A program made the translations under genes and the position numbers. Shown one piece after another: positions 13,985 through 17,915 of a stretch of DNA of 64,000 nucleotides. Positions within the stretch are counted from its first letter, which is position 1, and each line of letters begins with the position of its first letter. The stretch comes from an uncultured Trueperaceae bacterium (GTDB lineage: Bacteria > Deinococcota > Deinococci > Deinococcales > Trueperaceae), in the NCBI GenBank assembly GCA_963815215.1, contig CAWFFU010000003.1, positions 1,056,001 through 1,120,000 on the forward strand, given 5' to 3'. The notes under the pieces were generated by a model. It worked only from the letters and a program-made list of their open reading frames with translations. It did not search any database and was not told the origin of the DNA.

Positions 13985-14167
13985 CCCGCTACTGTAGCCG
14001 CTCCGTGCGGCCCCGCCACGCGGGCGGGCGTGACGGTCGTCTCCGGGCGGCCGCGGCAGCACGCTAGGCTGAGGCGCTGGCCCCCGTCCTCGGGCCCTCC
14101 ACGGGCGCCTGGCGGGCCGAGCACGGCCGCTGTAAGAGTTCCGTAAGCGCGGAACGTTAGGCTGCCG

Positions 14168-14241
14168 GTGAGGAAGCGTTGAAGCTCGATCTGCATTTGG
14201 GCGCTTGGATCGAGTGGAGCTAGTAGCGCACCCGGCCTCAC
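14168..14241 (+). ncRNA. c-di-GMP-II-like riboswitch aptamer 1
   Basis: GGAAGC.TTGAAG...TGGGCGCTTG...TGGAGCTAGTAGCGCACCCGGCC. P1 GTGAGG/CCTCAC, inner stem CTCGATC/GATCGAG, pseudoknot GCGCT/AGCGC. Confidence 0.88.
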
Positions 14242-14286
14242 GTCTTCGGCGGCATCATCGTGCCGTACGCTCGTGACCCGCCCGTC

Positions 14287-14325
14287 AAGCGCCCATCGTC
14301 AGGTCGATGTGGCGCTTCGTTGTTT
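14287..14325 (+). terminator. Putative intrinsic terminator forming the expression platform of aptamer 1
   Basis: AAGCGCC-CATCG-tcaggt-CGATG-t-GGCGCTT followed by CGTTGTTT (imperfect U tract). Confidence 0.6.
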
Positions 14326-14354
14326 GCACCTGCCGCTCGGCCCCTCGACCGAAG

Positions 14355-14432
14355 GGTTCGGAGGCTATGAGCCGAGACTCCCAACATGGGCATCAAGGGA
14401 CTCGGGGAGCCAGTGATGCAACCGGCCGGACC
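14355..14432 (+). ncRNA. c-di-GMP-II-like riboswitch aptamer 2
   Basis: GGAGGCTATGAG...TGGGCATCAA...GGAGCCAGTGATGCAACCGGCC. P1 GGTTCGG/CCGGACC, stem CCGAG/CTCGG, pseudoknot GCATCA/TGATGC. Confidence 0.85.
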
Positions 14433-14518
14433 TGGTACCGCATGTGCGGGCCGGATGGCCCACGCTCGCGGGCGCCAGCGCTCCCCCGGTTGCATCCGTC
14501 GACGAAGGGGGACGACGG

Positions 14519-14998
14519 ATGCGCCGCACTGGCACGACCGCTCTGACGTTGCTGTTCGGCTGGATGCTGTTCTCCGGCGTGGCCGGAGCTCAGGCCACCG
14601 CCCGCAACACCGTAACCGTGCACATCCCCAGCGTGCTGCGACTGAGCATCGATCAGGGCACGGCGAGCGATTCGCAGACCCTCGACGTGACCGTCGGCGG
14701 CACCGTCGACGGCACCTTCGACGGCACGCTGGTGGACCCGGGAAGCGTGACCGTCAAGGTCTTCGCGAACACCCAATGGGTCCTGTCGATCGAGGACAAG
14801 AGCCCCGCCGCCCCGACCCTTCAGGTCTGCACCACGTACGCGAGCCTGGCAGGCTGCTACCCGCTCGATCCCACGAAGAAGTTCGCTACGCAGCCGCCCA
14901 CCGGAGGCTGGCAGGACATCCCCCTGACGCTCCGCGTGAATTCGCCCGTCGCCACCACCATGACCCACACCCTGACCTTCACCCTGAGCCGGCCCTGA
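14519..14998 (+). CDS. Secreted pilin/fimbrial-subunit-like protein
   Basis: Signal peptide ending AGA|Q, N-terminal alternating strand TVTVHIP, one Cys pair, C-terminal THTLTFTL strand. Confidence 0.7.
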   Translation: MRRTGTTALTLLFGWMLFSGVAGAQATARNTVTVHIPSVLRLSIDQGTASDSQTLDVTVGGTVDGTFDGTLVDPGSVTVKVFANTQWVLSIEDKSPAAPTLQVCTTYASLAGCYPLDPTKKFATQPPTGGWQDIPLTLRVNSPVATTMTHTLTFTLSRP

Positions 14999-15025: not shown

Positions 15026-15340
15026 CTACCCTCGGTCGCGCGCGGGTGGGTCGACGCCTCGACCGTCGACCGCCGGCTCCTCGACCTCTAGCTCCCCGGC
15101 GTCGCCCTCCCCGGCATCGCCCTCCCCGATCGCGGCCGCGCCTGAAGGAGGCGCCGTTCGCACCGTCCACCACAACAACGCTCCGATGATCAGCACGATC
15201 AAGGCCACGCCCAGCGGGTCGCCGTCGAACAGGCGGATGGCGCCCGCGAGTTGCGCCAGGGCCAGCAGCGCGAACGCCGCTCCGACGATCAGGAACAGCC
15301 GGGCGAGCATGGCATAACCGCGTCGGGCGTCGTCGCTCAT
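15026..15340 (-). CDS. Small two-TM membrane protein with acidic tail
   Basis: Two hydrophobic helices followed by GEGDA repeats. Confidence 0.65.
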   Translation of the reverse strand: MSDDARRGYAMLARLFLIVGAAFALLALAQLAGAIRLFDGDPLGVALIVLIIGALLWWTVRTAPPSGAAAIGEGDAGEGDAGELEVEEPAVDGRGVDPPARDRG

Positions 15341-15386
15341 GAACGCGGCCATGATAGCAGCGCCACGGTTCGGAGCGGTCCGGCCG

Positions 15387-15956
15387 TCAGGACACCAGCT
15401 CACGGAAGCGGAAGCACCCCACCGTGTGGTCATTGACGAGCCCCGTCGCCTGCATGAAGGCGTAGGCCACGGTCGGCCCCACGAAGCGGAAGCCGCGCCG
15501 CCTCAGATCCTTCGCCAGCACGGTAGACGCCTCGGTCACGGCGGGGACGTCCTCCGCCGAGCCCCTCTCGCCGACGATGGGAGCGCAGGGGACCGCACCC
15601 CAGACGAAGGCGTCGAAGCTACCGAACGCCTCCTGAACACGCAGGAAGGCCTGCGCGTTGGCGATGGACGCGCGGATCTTGCCGCCGTTGCGCACGATGC
15701 CTGCGTCGGCCAGCAAGCGGGCCACGTCCGCCTCGCCGAAGCGCGCGACCCTGGCCGGATCGAACTCCGCGAATGCGGAGCGGAAGGCCTCGCGCTTGTG
15801 GAGGATGGTGCGCCAGCTCAGCCCCGCCTGGAAGCTCTCCAGCAGCAGCATCTCGAACCAGTGCCGATCGTCGTGAACGGGTACGCCCCACTCCTCGTCG
15901 TGGTAGCGCCGCATCCGTGGATCGCTACCGGCCCAGGCGCAGCGGGACCGCGTCAC
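15387..15956 (-). CDS. tag: DNA-3-methyladenine glycosylase I
   Basis: RCAW, YHDEEWG, LESFQAGLSW, FRFVGPT, NDHTVGC. Confidence 0.96.
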   Translation of the reverse strand: MTRSRCAWAGSDPRMRRYHDEEWGVPVHDDRHWFEMLLLESFQAGLSWRTILHKREAFRSAFAEFDPARVARFGEADVARLLADAGIVRNGGKIRASIANAQAFLRVQEAFGSFDAFVWGAVPCAPIVGERGSAEDVPAVTEASTVLAKDLRRRGFRFVGPTVAYAFMQATGLVNDHTVGCFRFRELVS

Positions 15957-16873
15957 CCGTTGCCGCCGACGTGCAGCACCAGGGCGGCGTAGATGAAGTC
16001 GTTGACCGGTGTCGGAACCTCCAGCGCGCGCCCGAGCCGGGACGCGGCACCGTTGAGCGCCTCGAGCTCGAGGCGCTTGCCTGCGGCCAGATCCTGCGCC
16101 AGCGACGACGTCATGGTCGGCTCGGCGGTCTCTCTGGCGAACCTCATGGCCCCCTCGACCGCGTCGTCGGGAAGCTCCACTCCGCTGGCCGCCGCCAGCG
16201 CCGCGATCTCCTGCATGCTGCGCCTGAGGAGCTCGCGCGTCTCGGGTTGCTCCATGATCGGGCCGATCGGCCTCCGGGTCAGCGCGGTCAGACCGCTGAA
16301 CGCGCAGATGAGCAGCCATTTGCGCCACAGTGCGGCCCTCGGATCGGCCTCCAGCGTGACCTCGACCCCGGCGCTCTCGAAGGCGGCCAGGACCGCGTCG
16401 GCGCGTCGATCACCGGCCACCAGCGGGCCGAACACGACCCGCGCGAACGGACTCTTGTGGACGATCTCGCCCGGCGCGCCGAGCACCGCCTCGATATAGG
16501 CGACTCCCGCCAGCACCCGCTCGTCCCCGAAGCGACGCCGGAGCACCTCGACCCCGTCGACGCCGTTCTGGAGCGTGAGTACGCGACTGTCCCGGTTCAC
16601 CAGCGGCGCGATCAGCGCCGCTGCTTCGGCGCTGTCCTGCGCCTTCACCGTGAACAGCACCAGGTCCGCGTTGCCGGCGGCCCGCGCATCCTCGACCACC
16701 GCGATCCCCGCCAGGTGCGCGTCTCCGAGCGTGCTGCGAAGGCGCAGCCCGTCCTCCATGAGCGCCTCCAGATGGGCCCCACGTGCGACCAGCGTGACCC
16801 GGTGTCCGGCCTGGGCCAGGCGCCCGCCGAAGTACCCTCCTACCGCGCCGGCACCCATCACGACGACATCCAT
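15953..16873 (-). CDS. panE: 2-dehydropantoate 2-reductase
   Basis: GAGAVGG, VK, LQNG, WRKW, SSLAQD, LELEALNG. Confidence 0.9.
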   Translation of the reverse strand: MDVVVMGAGAVGGYFGGRLAQAGHRVTLVARGAHLEALMEDGLRLRSTLGDAHLAGIAVVEDARAAGNADLVLFTVKAQDSAEAAALIAPLVNRDSRVLTLQNGVDGVEVLRRRFGDERVLAGVAYIEAVLGAPGEIVHKSPFARVVFGPLVAGDRRADAVLAAFESAGVEVTLEADPRAALWRKWLLICAFSGLTALTRRPIGPIMEQPETRELLRRSMQEIAALAAASGVELPDDAVEGAMRFARETAEPTMTSSLAQDLAAGKRLELEALNGAASRLGRALEVPTPVNDFIYAALVLHVGGNG

Positions 16874-16952: not shown

Positions 16953-17915
16953 TCAGCCTTCTCGCGGGGTGGAGCTCCGCTCGCGCTTGTGCTGGTACAT
17001 GCGCTCATCGGCGCGAGCGAGCAGGGCCTCGAAGGACTCGGCGTCGTCGGGGTAGAGCGCCGCGCCCACGCTGGCGCTGAGTTGCACGGTGTAGTCCGCG
17101 AGGTGGATGGGCTCCTCGATCGATTGGATGAGGCGCTCGGCGACGCGGTCCAGCGTGCCGACGTCGGCGTCGCCGAGCAGCACCGCGAACTCATCGCCGC
17201 CGATGCGGGCCACCATCTCGCCGGGGCGCACGTTCTGCTTGAGCCGCTGGCCGATGACGCTCAGCACGCTGTCGCCGGCCTCGTGCCCGTGCCAGTCGTT
17301 GATCCTCTTGAAGCCGTTGAGATCGAAGTAGATGATGGCCATCTGCATCCGGCGCTTGCGCCAGACCCAGAAGCGCGACTTCAGGTGGCGCCGGTTGGGC
17401 AACCCCGTCAGGTCGTCGTGGTTCATCAACTCGACTGCCTGGCGCAGCACGTCCTTGTAGTTGGTGATGGACCGGAACAGCACCACCACGTGATCCTCGT
17501 CGACAGGCACCACCGTCACCACATACCACCAGGCGGGCGCCGCCTCCGCGATCTCATCGTCCACTCCGTCCCCGTCGACCTCACTGATATCGGGTCGCTG
17601 AGCGCGGAAGGGCGCGGTGGGAATGGCGTACTCGAACTCGCGCGGCCGCCGCCCATGCAACGCCGACGCCAGCCGCCGCATCAGACGCGGGTCGAGGTGA
17701 TCGGGGTAGACGCTTCGCAGGCGCTCGCCGACGACTTCCTTCGGGGCCGTGCGCAGGATTCCGGCAGCGACCGCGTTGAGGTCCACCCAAACGAAGTCGC
17801 GAAGCCGGCCCGCGTCGTTGCGCACCGCCCGGAACACCACCACCCCGTGCGGCAGGTTTCGGAAGAAGCCCGTCCACATCTTGCCCCAGTCCTCGCTGTG
17901 CTCGGCCTCGCTCAT
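16953..17915 (-). CDS. PAS-like plus GGDEF diguanylate cyclase
   Basis: DDLTGLPNRR, DLNGFKRIND.HGHEAGD, RIGGDEF. Confidence 0.93.
   Translation of the reverse strand: MSEAEHSEDWGKMWTGFFRNLPHGVVVFRAVRNDAGRLRDFVWVDLNAVAAGILRTAPKEVVGERLRSVYPDHLDPRLMRRLASALHGRRPREFEYAIPTAPFRAQRPDISEVDGDGVDDEIAEAAPAWWYVVTVVPVDEDHVVVLFRSITNYKDVLRQAVELMNHDDLTGLPNRRHLKSRFWVWRKRRMQMAIIYFDLNGFKRINDWHGHEAGDSVLSVIGQRLKQNVRPGEMVARIGGDEFAVLLGDADVGTLDRVAERLIQSIEEPIHLADYTVQLSASVGAALYPDDAESFEALLARADERMYQHKRERSSTPREG

What the first reader, a model, noticed from the sequence alone, without database searches (positions are those of the whole stretch)
14168..14521. Tandem c-di-GMP-II-like riboswitches with two different expression platforms
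Seen: two aptamers whose pseudoknots covary (GCGCT/AGCGC versus GCATCA/TGATGC). The aptamer 1 loop TGGGCGCTTG (14198-14207) is the exact complement of CAAGCGCCCA (14286-14295), the 5' arm of a terminator-like hairpin. The aptamer 2 3' strand GATGCAACCGG (14415-14425) is the exact complement of CCGGTTGCATC (14486-14496). That segment overlaps CATCCGTCG (14493-14501), which pairs with CGACGGATG (14513-14521) containing the ATG, with the SD in the loop. Inference: ligand binding frees the terminator (transcription OFF) and the start-codon hairpin (translation OFF). This would be a dual-mechanism tandem OFF switch, or a two-input gate if the ligands differ.
Basis: partly seen in the sequence, partly recalled or inferred. 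Interest (0 to 1): 0.85.

Follow-up and report, generated by a model that had tools for sequence, protein, structure and literature searches.

The report
Two-stage tandem c-di-GMP OFF riboswitch
The leader of a small secreted-protein gene carries two cyclic-di-GMP-sensing RNA switches in a row, which most likely shut the gene off twice, first by stopping transcription and then by hiding the start codon; this is a tidy but not unprecedented design.

Summary
Rfam c-di-GMP-II (RF01786, cut-off 53.5 bits) matches 14163-14245 at 69.1 bits and 14351-14436 at 60.2 bits. Each of the two long complements occurs nowhere else in the 64 kb window.

The pair sits in the 5' leader of a 159-aa secreted beta-sandwich protein of no known family (CDS 14519-14998). 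The same doublet precedes the orthologue in 10 of 10 genomes of the genus.

Both switches read as OFF through three-strand logic. Ligand-held aptamer 1 releases 14286-14298 to form a terminator-like hairpin. Ligand-held aptamer 2 releases 14486-14501 to pair with the start codon.

The translational module is strongly supported: 26 distinct homologous platforms have varied inner stems. The terminator is plausible but weaker, because its T tract is imperfect.

Different ligands are unlikely, since both aptamers fit the canonical model best. However, aptamer 1 carries C at the position I map to the intercalating pocket adenine (A70 of PDB 3Q3Z).

Tandem c-di-GMP-II doublets and terminator-plus-translation ("bi-mechanism") tandems are both already in print, so this is a new variant of a known kind.

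The parts
14132..14163 (+). Conserved upstream element GTAAGAGTTCCGTAAG (14132-14147) followed by a -10-like TAnnCT (TAGGCT, 14158-14163). It is a candidate promoter or protein-binding site. The transcription start is not settled.
   Evidence: The element is invariant or nearly invariant in 11 of 11 orthologous leaders. The same motif lies upstream of the singleton riboswitch on contig C11. The sigma-70 consensus scan found no site. RNA-library contigs begin upstream of it, at 14093-14111.
14163..14245 (+). Aptamer 1, c-di-GMP-II class. The pseudoknot pairs 14201-14205 (GCGCU) with 14225-14229 (AGCGC). The pocket string 14230-14234 reads ACCCG instead of the consensus AACCG, with C at 14231.
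   Evidence: RF01786 scores 69.1 bits against a cut-off of 53.5. The variant models score lower: GAG 48.4 and GCG 52.7. The pocket mapping is inferred from PMC13715770.
14239..14275 (+). Structured spacer 1: helix CACG/CGUG (14239-14242 with 14272-14275) enclosing a hairpin (14249-14255 with 14260-14266).
   Evidence: RNAalifold on 11 orthologues gives 11 pairs, 5 of them with compensatory changes.
14286..14298 (+). Switching strand 1. It pairs either with the aptamer-1 P3 loop 14198-14207 (anti-terminator, 10 bp) or with 14305-14317 (terminator 3' arm).
   Evidence: The complementarity is exact. Anti-terminator cells are 97.3% paired in 11 orthologues. The minimum-free-energy fold of 14160-14326 is the anti-terminator conformer.
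14287..14325 (+). Terminator-like hairpin (AAGCGCC+CATCG / CGATG+GGCGCTT: 12 bp, one bulge, 6-nt loop) followed by the T-rich tail CGTTGTTT.
   Evidence: The terminator scan flags its inner stem plus tail. Cells are 87.1% paired and 2 pairs show compensatory change. The tail holds 3-6 T in 12 nt across 11 orthologues, where the leaders are 13-18% T. A lower-GC relative has the equivalent element followed by a five-T run, GAGCGTTTTT.
14351..14436 (+). Aptamer 2, c-di-GMP-II class. The pseudoknot pairs 14390-14395 (GCAUCA) with 14414-14419 (UGAUGC). The pocket string AACCG at 14420-14424 is canonical.
   Evidence: RF01786 scores 60.2 bits. The variant models score GAG 53.4 and GCG 38.6. It is almost invariant in 11 orthologues whose proteins are only 31-89% identical.
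14432..14478 (+). Structured spacer 2: closing helix 14432-14436 with 14474-14478, and inner hairpins. The spacing from aptamer 2 to the switching strand was a fixed 65 nt in all 8 Family-1 orthologues measured.
   Evidence: RNAalifold gives 16 pairs, 4 with compensatory changes.
14486..14501 (+). Switching strand 2. Positions 14486-14496 pair with the aptamer-2 3' strand 14415-14425 (anti-sequestor, 11 bp). Positions 14493-14501 pair with 14513-14521 (sequestor). The overlap is CAUC, 14493-14496.
   Evidence: The complementarity is exact. Anti-sequestor cells are 96.7% paired and sequestor cells 93.9%. The two conformers are nearly iso-energetic, -94.2 versus -92.9 kcal/mol.
14502..14521 (+). 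Shine-Dalgarno-like GAAGGGGGA (14503-14511) in the hairpin loop, and the sequestor 3' arm CGACGGAUG containing the start codon 14519-14521.
   Evidence: Read. A homologous hairpin is present in 26 distinct sequences with 22 different inner parts.
14519..14998 (+). Regulated gene: a 159-aa protein with an N-terminal signal-peptide-like segment and a predicted all-beta sandwich. No family is assigned. It is monocistronic, because the next convincing gene (Adenine_glyco, 15387-16328) is on the minus strand; a 135-aa minus-strand ORF with no family (15026-15433) lies between.
   Evidence: ORF. No Pfam family at E up to 0.01. No NCBIfam family near its cut-off. AlphaFold2 gives pLDDT 82.9.

Best explanation
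The 5' leader of the 159-aa secreted-protein gene holds two complete c-di-GMP-II riboswitches in series. Both repress when c-di-GMP is bound.

Switch 1 is transcriptional (inferred). Without ligand, the P3 loop that would form the pseudoknot, together with the 5' half of the aptamer, pairs with 14286-14298 and the strand beyond it. The downstream hairpin then cannot form and RNA polymerase reads on. With ligand, the loop is locked in the pseudoknot. Positions 14286-14298 instead pair with 14305-14317, whose sequence mimics the loop, giving a 12-bp hairpin followed by a T-rich tail and premature termination near 14320-14326.

Switch 2 is translational. Without ligand, the aptamer's 3' pseudoknot/junction strand GAUGCAACCGG pairs with CCGGUUGCAUC, so the AUG is free. 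With ligand, that strand is held in the aptamer. GCAUCCGUCG then pairs with CGACGGAUGC, burying the start codon and confining the Shine-Dalgarno sequence to the loop. The start-codon context GGAUGC copies the aptamer's pseudoknot strand GAUGC, so a single switching strand can choose between them.

The result is a same-ligand, two-level ('bi-mechanism') OFF device with a steeper and tighter response than one switch would give.

What is shown: aptamer identity, the complementarities, and their conservation. What is inferred: ligand binding, termination, the direction of regulation in vivo, and the biological role.
For: Aptamers: two RF01786 hits score above the cut-off. The canonical model beats both variant models for both aptamers. 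The pseudoknot strands are complementary in both aptamers with different sequences. Further compensating versions occur in relatives: GCACCA/UGGUGC and GCGCCA/UGGCGC.

Conservation: the orthologue of the gene was found in 10 of 10 genomes of the genus, each directly downstream of a doublet. The same holds in two genomes outside the genus, G019 and G030. The leader has 84% mean column identity, while the proteins are 31-89% identical.

Helices: the ON-state helices are 97.0% paired and the OFF-state helices 90.0% paired across 11 leaders. Slid controls give 25-51%. The OFF-state helices have 3 pairs with compensatory changes.

Energetics: for switch 1 the anti-terminator conformer is the minimum-free-energy fold (-69.6) against -65.2 with the terminator forced. 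For switch 2 the values are -94.2 (sequestor) and -92.9 (anti-sequestor). In both cases a ligand-sized stabilisation would tip the balance.

Translational module: 26 distinct platforms came from 32 loci examined. All 26 fold into the GCAUCC...GGAUGC hairpin. 25 of 26 are more stable than the mean of their shuffles, 13 of 26 lie within the best 5% of shuffles, mean z is -1.95, and 22 inner sequences are distinct. Substitutions in the part of the switching strand that lies in the sequestor stem are all transitions that keep pairing with the start-codon arm (G-U pairs; by my reading they also still pair with the invariant aptamer strand).

Terminator: a hairpin plus T-rich tail is flagged by the scan. 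A lower-GC relative has the homologous anti-loop element inside a hairpin followed by a five-T run, GAGCGTTTTT. Loop/anti-loop complementarity recurs in 30 of 33 doublets at better than the shuffle mean, and in 15 of 33 within the best 5%.

Context: the other two doublets in this genome precede a GH26 glycoside hydrolase and a right-handed beta-helix protein. A GGDEF diguanylate cyclase gene lies about 2 kb away.
Against: No experiment or transcript end supports termination. The T tract is interrupted (5 T in 12 nt here and 3-6 in orthologues). It is poor or absent in G019 and L071. One RNA-library contig runs across the hairpin from 14111 to 14557, so read-through molecules exist.

The ON-state helices show 0 compensatory changes among 11 orthologues. 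One strand of each is part of the invariant aptamer core, so support comes from conservation rather than covariation.

RNAalifold on an unguided MAFFT alignment recovered only the six outer pairs of the start-codon hairpin.

The energy model ignores the pseudoknot and the ligand.

The class II switches characterised in C. difficile are ON switches (PMC11477304, passages), so the OFF logic here has no experimental precedent in what I read.

Aptamer 1 has C in place of the intercalating pocket adenine, which could weaken or abolish binding.
Confidence: 0.6

Rival explanations
1. This is a same-ligand tandem, but the hairpin after aptamer 1 is not an intrinsic terminator. The loop / anti-loop / loop-mimic exchange would act in another way, for example on Rho access, RNA stability, or the folding of aptamer 2. 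Only switch 2 would then have the output described.
For: The T tract is imperfect. The other two doublet families carry an anti-loop element but no hairpin-plus-T-tract involving it. G019 and L071 lack a T-rich tail. An RNA contig spans the site.
Against: The hairpin arms are kept in the orthologues with two compensatory pairs. The tail is among the most T-rich 12-nt windows of the leader in the four closest genomes. A lower-GC relative has a five-T run after the equivalent hairpin.
Confidence: 0.2
2. The two sensors are not equivalent. Aptamer 1, with ACCCG instead of AACCG in the pocket, would have a different set-point or prefer another cyclic dinucleotide. The leader would then be a two-threshold or two-input OFF gate.
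For: C at 14231 replaces the adenine that I map to A70 of PDB 3Q3Z, which intercalates between the ligand bases. Among 99 distinct aptamer cores in the fetched loci, the AC form occurs 4 times; the window's own copy is identical to one of them and was counted once. Every AC form is the first aptamer of this gene family's doublet, in three separate lineages. Aptamer 1 also passes the cut-off of the GCG variant model, 52.7 against 47.9 bits.
Against: The canonical model still wins by 16 bits. A69 and G73, the two residues that read the ligand's bases, are unchanged. 8 of 11 otherwise near-identical orthologous aptamers have A at this position, so the position looks tolerant rather than diagnostic.
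Confidence: 0.12
3. One or both switches are ON switches, as in the characterised class II examples.
For: The class II switches studied in C. difficile are ON switches (PMC11477304, passages).
Against: Neither output helix overlaps its aptamer. Each is separated from it by a switching strand that is complementary to both, and that arrangement gives OFF. No alternative pairing between an aptamer strand and the terminator 3' arm or the start codon was seen that would reverse the logic, apart from the extended anti-terminator, which also forms only when the aptamer is unfolded.
Confidence: 0.04

Closest known systems
Tandem ('pseudo-cooperative') c-di-GMP-II riboswitch doublets: Sherlock et al. 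2022, RNA Biol, PMC9481103 (passages read)
   Same: Two complete c-di-GMP-II riboswitches lie upstream of one ORF for a surface or secreted protein. A sharper response to c-di-GMP is predicted.
   Different: That paper reports 59 doublets and 9 triplets, mostly upstream of COG4932 in Paraclostridium. It lists them as pseudo-cooperative. Its main text describes no mixed platforms for this class and does not contain the word stem 'Deinococc'. Here the platforms differ (terminator-like, then start-codon hairpin), both read as OFF, and the host is a 70% G+C genome. Its supplementary lists could not be read, so these loci may already be catalogued there.
Bi-mechanism tandem riboswitches, SAM-II/SAM-V and some SAM-II/SAM-II (described in PMC9481103, passages)
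   Same: [quoted passage not shown] Both sense the same ligand and both are OFF.
   Different: The aptamer class and ligand are different. Here both aptamers belong to one class, and the second hides the start codon rather than only the ribosome-binding site.
Class II c-di-GMP riboswitches of Clostridioides difficile (PMC11477304, passages)
   Same: Same aptamer family. The targets are surface structures and adhesins.
   Different: Those are described as transcriptional ON switches, or in one case a switch coupled to a group I ribozyme. The present ones read as OFF, and one is translational.
Triple-tandem c-di-GMP-I riboswitch Bc3-5 of Bacillus thuringiensis (PMC4759541, search listing and abstract only)
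   Same: Several c-di-GMP riboswitches in series in one 5' UTR.
   Different: It belongs to class I (GEMM-I), which is not homologous to class II, and has three units.

Membership tests
c-di-GMP-II riboswitch aptamer (Rfam RF01786) | Covariance-model score at or above the curated gathering score, over the full model | tested here: met
   69.1 and 60.2 bits against 53.5, covering model positions 1-84 of 84.
c-di-GMP-II riboswitch aptamer (Rfam RF01786) | Pseudoknot (P4) between the P3 loop and the strand 3' of P2 | tested here: met
   GCGCU/AGCGC (14201-14205 with 14225-14229) and GCAUCA/UGAUGC (14390-14395 with 14414-14419), read. Further compensating versions occur in relatives. The pseudoknot is not part of the covariance-model structure line shown, so this is independent of the score.
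c-di-GMP-II riboswitch aptamer (Rfam RF01786) | Ligand-pocket nucleotides A69, A70 and G73 of PDB 3Q3Z. Their roles come from PMC13715770 (whole text). Mapping them onto the consensus AACCG is my inference. | tested here: inconclusive
   Aptamer 2 has AACCG (14420-14424). Aptamer 1 has ACCCG (14230-14234): A69 and G73 are kept and position 70 is C.
c-di-GMP-II riboswitch aptamer (Rfam RF01786) | Binds c-di-GMP selectively | not testable with these tools
   Needs in-line probing or ITC.
c-di-GMP-II variant families (RF03169 GAG, RF03170 GCG) | The variant model scores better than the canonical model | tested here: not met
   Aptamer 1 scores 48.4 and 52.7 against 69.1. Aptamer 2 scores 53.4 and 38.6 against 60.2.
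Bi-mechanism tandem riboswitch (as defined in PMC9481103) | Two independent, complete riboswitches for the same ligand upstream of one ORF with no ORF between them | tested here: met
   Two aptamers lie 105 nt apart, each followed by its own alternative-pairing elements. The ORFs overlapping the leader were not tested further; the leader's conservation follows the aptamers and platform strands. The 'same ligand' part is inferred from the model scores.
Bi-mechanism tandem riboswitch (as defined in PMC9481103) | The first riboswitch controls an intrinsic terminator | tested here: inconclusive
   The hairpin is conserved. The T tract is imperfect. A clearer five-T run is seen in one relative.
Bi-mechanism tandem riboswitch (as defined in PMC9481103) | [quoted passage not shown] | tested here: met
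   The start codon lies inside a 9-10 bp hairpin that competes with an 11-bp anti-sequestor. The module recurs in 26 distinct sequences with varied inner stems. Function itself is not tested.
Two-input (Boolean) tandem riboswitch gate | The two aptamers sense different ligands | tested here: inconclusive
   Both best fit one family. One pocket difference exists. Specificity cannot be computed here.

The most novel reading that the evidence does not exclude
The two aptamers are deliberately non-equivalent sensors. The first carries a recurrent A70-to-C pocket variant, seen only in the first aptamer of this gene family's doublet and in three lineages. That variant shifts its affinity or its cyclic-dinucleotide preference. 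The leader would then be a two-threshold (or two-input) OFF gate built from two unusual platforms: capture of the pseudoknot loop by the terminator arm, and a start codon that mimics the pseudoknot strand.
Probability: 0.15. Interest if true: 0.65.

Novelty: new variant of a known kind. Interest (0 to 1): 0.45.

Why it matters
Class II c-di-GMP riboswitches have been characterised as ON switches in Clostridia. This lineage offers predicted OFF versions in both transcriptional and translational forms.

The design rule is easy to test. A switching strand chooses between an aptamer strand and a copy of that strand placed in the output element: a loop mimic in the terminator, and a pseudoknot-strand mimic at the start codon.

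The doublets in this genome precede a GH26 glycoside hydrolase, a beta-helix protein and an unknown secreted beta-sandwich protein. This suggests a c-di-GMP-repressed set of secreted proteins, and my inference is matrix remodelling or dispersal.

The module could also be reused as a compact c-di-GMP-repressible translation switch.

It does not open a new category. Tandem c-di-GMP-II switches and bi-mechanism tandems are both already described.

Tried and rejected
- **Sigma-70 promoter scan of 13700-14900:** 0 sites. The promoter stays unassigned.
- **RNA evidence:** only Logan contigs were available. Four metatranscriptome runs gave contigs 95-99% alike (some pieces in X18 90-95%) that cover 14093-14557 and nothing beyond. 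Lack of cover over the CDS and contig ends (three short X18 pieces end at 14316, beside a variable site) cannot be read as transcript ends, so I draw no conclusion about termination.
- **RNAalifold on an unguided alignment of 26 platforms:** it found only the outer six pairs. I therefore used per-sequence folding against shuffles instead.
- **Fold of the protein:** Foldseek against the PDB gave no match at E up to 0.001. VIA-align gave a best Z of 7.9 (a botulinum-complex HA70 domain), with pilin-like domains at Z 5-6.5, all within the noise range the tool states. The protein atlas gave only unnamed clusters, with SCPU at 0.91 and WxL at 0.90 as weak leads. No family is assigned.
- **Literature access:** PMC3093532 (cited as Smith et al. 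2011, the 3Q3Z structure paper) and PMC4538695 (Lee et al. 2010) are not held. The paper that I recall defined the GAG/GCG variants (Weinberg et al. 2017) did not appear in my search, so the meaning of those names is only my guess. Earlier-findings search was not open.
- **Readings rejected:** the ON-switch reading was considered and rejected on the three-strand geometry. A chance origin of the complements was rejected.
- **Not verified:** ten of the 30 loci returned by the 13-mer pattern search (L061-L069, L076) showed no platform downstream and look like coincidental matches in coding sequence. I did not check them with the covariance model, and they were not used.
Full report
**1. The observation**

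I read 13800-14900.
- TGGGCGCTTG is at 14198-14207 and CAAGCGCCCA at 14286-14295.
- GATGCAACCGG is at 14415-14425 and CCGGTTGCATC at 14486-14496.
- CATCCGTCG is at 14493-14501 and CGACGGATG at 14513-14521, with the ATG at 14519-14521.
- The two pseudoknots are GCGCT/AGCGC (14201-14205 with 14225-14229) and GCATCA/TGATGC (14390-14395 with 14414-14419).

Each of the two long complements occurs in the 64 kb window only at its two complementary places. The chance expectations are 0.21 and 0.04.

Infernal against Rfam gives c-di-GMP-II (RF01786, gathering score 53.5) at 14163-14245 with 69.1 bits and at 14351-14436 with 60.2 bits. Both are on the + strand and span the full model. A permissive scan of 13950-14700 on both strands adds only two sub-threshold hits at 16-17 bits.

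**2. Surroundings**

The first ATG preceded by a Shine-Dalgarno-like GAAGGGGGA is at 14519. The frame runs to 14998, giving 159 aa. The protein begins with a signal-peptide-like segment (my reading of the sequence).
- It has no Pfam family at E up to 0.01.
- It has no NCBIfam family near its cut-off.
- It has only 7 homologues in the 5.8-billion-cluster search. One carries a source name, 'hypothetical protein'; the others have none.
- AlphaFold2 on an 18-sequence alignment gives an all-beta model with pLDDT 82.9. Structure searches give nothing above the noise level. Atlas leads to SCPU and WxL clusters are weak.

Upstream, on the other strand, lies an MTHFR-like gene. Downstream, on the minus strand, come a 135-aa ORF with no family (15026-15433), a methyladenine glycosylase gene and a PAS-GGDEF diguanylate cyclase gene. 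The regulated unit therefore looks monocistronic.

**3. The arrangement is recurrent**

The window's own genome is 3.3 Mb with about 70% G+C. It holds 7 RF01786 matches: three doublets and one singleton. The other two doublets precede a GH26 glycoside hydrolase and a right-handed beta-helix protein.

In 41 related genomes, 33 have a match. The 134 listed matches sort into 24 doublets and 86 singletons, with no triplets. All 10 genomes of the genus have at least one doublet.

The 159-aa protein has a relative in 14 of 41 genomes, including 10 of 10 in the genus. In all 10 the gene lies directly behind a doublet. The same is true of G019 and G030 outside the genus. More distant doublet-plus-homologue loci turned up in the pattern search: L071, L073 and L075.

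**4. Comparative test of the four helices**

Eleven orthologous leaders align with 84% mean column identity, although the proteins are only 31-89% identical to the window's. Aptamer 2 and the strand CCGGTTGCATCCGTC are almost invariant.

The ligand-free helices are the loop with 14286-14295 and 14415-14425 with 14486-14496. They are 97.0% paired, with no compensatory change. Slid controls give 29-44%.

The ligand-bound helices are the terminator-like hairpin and the start-codon hairpin. They are 90.0% paired, and 3 pairs show compensatory change. Slid controls give 25-51%.

The structures were derived from one of these sequences, and one strand of each ligand-free helix belongs to the invariant aptamer core. 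These counts therefore show conservation more than covariation.

**5. Independent support for the translational platform**

A search for the aptamer-2 type 3' strand in 251 genomes of the order found it in 41. Among 32 loci examined, I left out L038-L040 as near-duplicates of the window. Six loci lacked the motif as I defined it. The remaining 26 gave distinct platforms of 36-40 nt.

Each folds into a hairpin that pairs GCAUCC with GGAUGC, where the AUG is the start codon, and holds a purine-rich Shine-Dalgarno sequence in or beside the loop. The inner stems differ; examples are GUCG/CGAC, AAACAC/GUGUUU, CGACCAU/AUGGUU, UUCCAC/GUGG and AACCAA/UUGGUU.
- 25 of 26 are more stable than the mean of 300 shuffles of the inner part.
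- 13 of 26 lie within the best 5% of shuffles.
- Mean z is -1.95, and 22 inner sequences are distinct.

In the part of the switching strand that lies in the sequestor stem, the only changes are C-to-U and A-to-G transitions. These keep pairing with the start-codon arm. By my reading they also keep pairing with the invariant aptamer strand. Three sequences carry a mismatch against the aptamer strand further 5' in the switching strand (my reading).

An unguided RNAalifold run recovered only the outer six pairs.

My reading is that the aptamer-2 pseudoknot variant GCAUCA/UGAUGC exists because it contains AUG. The start-codon context GGAUGC then copies the aptamer strand, and one switching strand can pair with either.

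**6. The platform of aptamer 1**

The strand 14286-14298 can pair with the pseudoknot-forming loop. Alternatively it can pair with 14305-14317, which resembles that loop. The second pairing gives a 12-bp hairpin followed by CGTTGTTTG.

The terminator scan flags the inner stem and the tail. Across the 11 leaders the 12 nt after the hairpin hold 3-6 T, against a leader T content of 13-18%. The tract is interrupted, and it is poor in G019 and in L071. A lower-GC relative, L073, has the homologous element inside a hairpin followed by a five-T run, GAGCGTTTTT, which the scan also flags.

A loop-complementary element of the form AAG[CU]NCCC lies between the aptamers in all three doublet families. 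In 30 of 33 doublets the best loop-spacer duplex beats the shuffle mean, and in 15 of 33 it is within the best 5%. In the other two families, however, that element is not part of a hairpin with a T tract. Termination is therefore the weakest step of the model.

**7. Energetics and logic**

For 14160-14326 the minimum-free-energy fold (-69.6 kcal/mol) is an extended anti-terminator, in which the 5' half of aptamer 1 pairs with the whole hairpin region. Forcing the hairpin gives -65.2.

For 14345-14540 the fold with the start-codon hairpin (-94.2) and the fold with the anti-sequestor (-92.9) are nearly equal.

Pseudoknot and ligand energies are not modelled. Either balance could be tipped by ligand binding. 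In both switches the output helix does not touch the aptamer, and a switching strand lies between them. Ligand binding therefore favours the output helix, which means OFF.

This is the opposite of the class II switches characterised in C. difficile, which are ON (PMC11477304, passages).

**8. One ligand or two**

Both aptamers score best with the canonical model. Aptamer 1 scores 69.1, against 48.4 (GAG variant) and 52.7 (GCG variant). Aptamer 2 scores 60.2, against 53.4 and 38.6.

PMC13715770 (whole text) states that in PDB 3Q3Z one ligand guanine is read by A69 and the other by G73 plus the ribose of A70. It also states that an adenine intercalates between the two bases. I map these residues onto the invariant AACCG of the consensus. 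This mapping is my inference.

Aptamer 2 has AACCG. Aptamer 1 has ACCCG, with C at 14231. In the 11 orthologues, 3 have C and 8 have A. Among 99 distinct aptamer cores in all fetched loci, 88 are AA, 7 are GA and 4 are AC. The window's own copy is identical to one of the AC cores. Every AC case is the first aptamer of this gene family's doublet, in three lineages.

I read this as a tolerated or affinity-tuning variant. A different ligand is possible but unlikely.

**9. RNA evidence**

Only assembled contigs of metatranscriptome runs were available. Contigs 95-99% alike cover 14093-14557, and one runs from 14111 to 14557 across the hairpin. This shows at most that leader RNA of close relatives exists in the environment and that read-through molecules occur. 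It says nothing reliable about transcript ends.

**10. Comparison with what is known**

Tandem c-di-GMP-II riboswitches are in print: 59 doublets and 9 triplets, classed as pseudo-cooperative and mostly in Paraclostridium (PMC9481103, passages). The same paper defines bi-mechanism tandems, with a terminator first and translation control second, for SAM-II/SAM-V and some SAM-II pairs. A 2025 survey notes that contiguous c-di-GMP riboswitches are enriched in Thermodesulfobacteriota and Deinococcota (PMC12452182, passages).

My searches found no description of several features seen here:
- a c-di-GMP-II doublet with mixed platforms;
- class II OFF switches;
- the loop-capture design or the start-codon-mimic design;
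- the ACCCG pocket form.

Supplementary catalogues could not be read, and two key primary papers are not held. 'Not found' therefore applies only to those searches.

**11. Verdict**

This is a real, well-conserved tandem c-di-GMP-II riboswitch. It is most likely a same-ligand, two-level OFF device. It is a new variant of a known kind, of moderate interest.

Noticed in passing
window 14132-14163; also G000 contig C11 361486-361501 (minus strand): GTAAGAGTTCCGTAAG followed about 10 nt later by TAnnCT is invariant or nearly so upstream of aptamer 1 in 11 of 11 orthologous leaders. It also precedes the singleton riboswitch on C11. Five sites with at most 2 mismatches exist in the genome, and others have the form GTAAGAG-N5-GTAAG. 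It may be a promoter or a regulator-binding site. RNA-library contigs start upstream of it (14093-14111), and a second TAGGCT lies at 14065-14070, so the transcription start is open.
   Followed up: partly
G000 contig C11 288378-288653 (+) and contig C8 287590-287833 (-): Two more c-di-GMP-II doublets lie in the same genome, upstream of a GH26 glycoside hydrolase and of a right-handed beta-helix protein. I read both proteins as having lipoprotein-type N-termini. The C8 doublet's second aptamer uses the same start-codon hairpin module. The C11 doublet has two GCGC-pseudoknot aptamers and a clear TTTCAC-N17-TAGTAT promoter-like site.
   Followed up: partly
G000 contig C11 about 359400-361426 (minus strand): A singleton c-di-GMP-II aptamer has GACCG in the pocket string, which is probably the 'GAG' form. 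It precedes a paralogue of the 159-aa protein and a chaperone-like ORF. The reading frames of both switch several times, so they are either pseudogenes or contain assembly indels.
   Followed up: partly
loci L081, L082, L084, L085, L088 (relatives): In one doublet family the P1 3' strand of the first aptamer is followed at once by a T-rich run (for example GGTCGAGTTCTTTTTGTG). The aptamer's own P1 helix may therefore serve as the terminator stem. The next element, AAGCACCCAC, forms a hairpin with a copy of the aptamer loop.
   Followed up: no
loci L077 and L080 (relatives): Upstream of homologues of the 159-aa protein, the first aptamer position holds a shortened, degenerate-looking element. 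The loop GGGCGC and a GCGCACCCCG strand are kept, but the GGAGC-AGU junction is missing. It could be a decayed or 'ghost' aptamer.
   Followed up: no
window 14239-14275 and 14432-14478: Both spacers (aptamer 1 to switching strand 1, and aptamer 2 to switching strand 2) are themselves structured, with compensatory changes in 5 of 11 and 4 of 16 predicted pairs. The second spacer keeps a fixed length of 65 nt in the 8 Family-1 orthologues measured, against 16-25 nt in the other doublet family.
   Followed up: partly
window 32-1556 (minus strand): A complete bacterial 16S rRNA gene (1539 bits) lies 12.6 kb upstream. It was not used here to name the organism.
   Followed up: no
window 16953-17915 (minus strand): A PAS-GGDEF diguanylate cyclase gene lies about 2 kb downstream of the riboswitch-controlled gene.
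   Followed up: no
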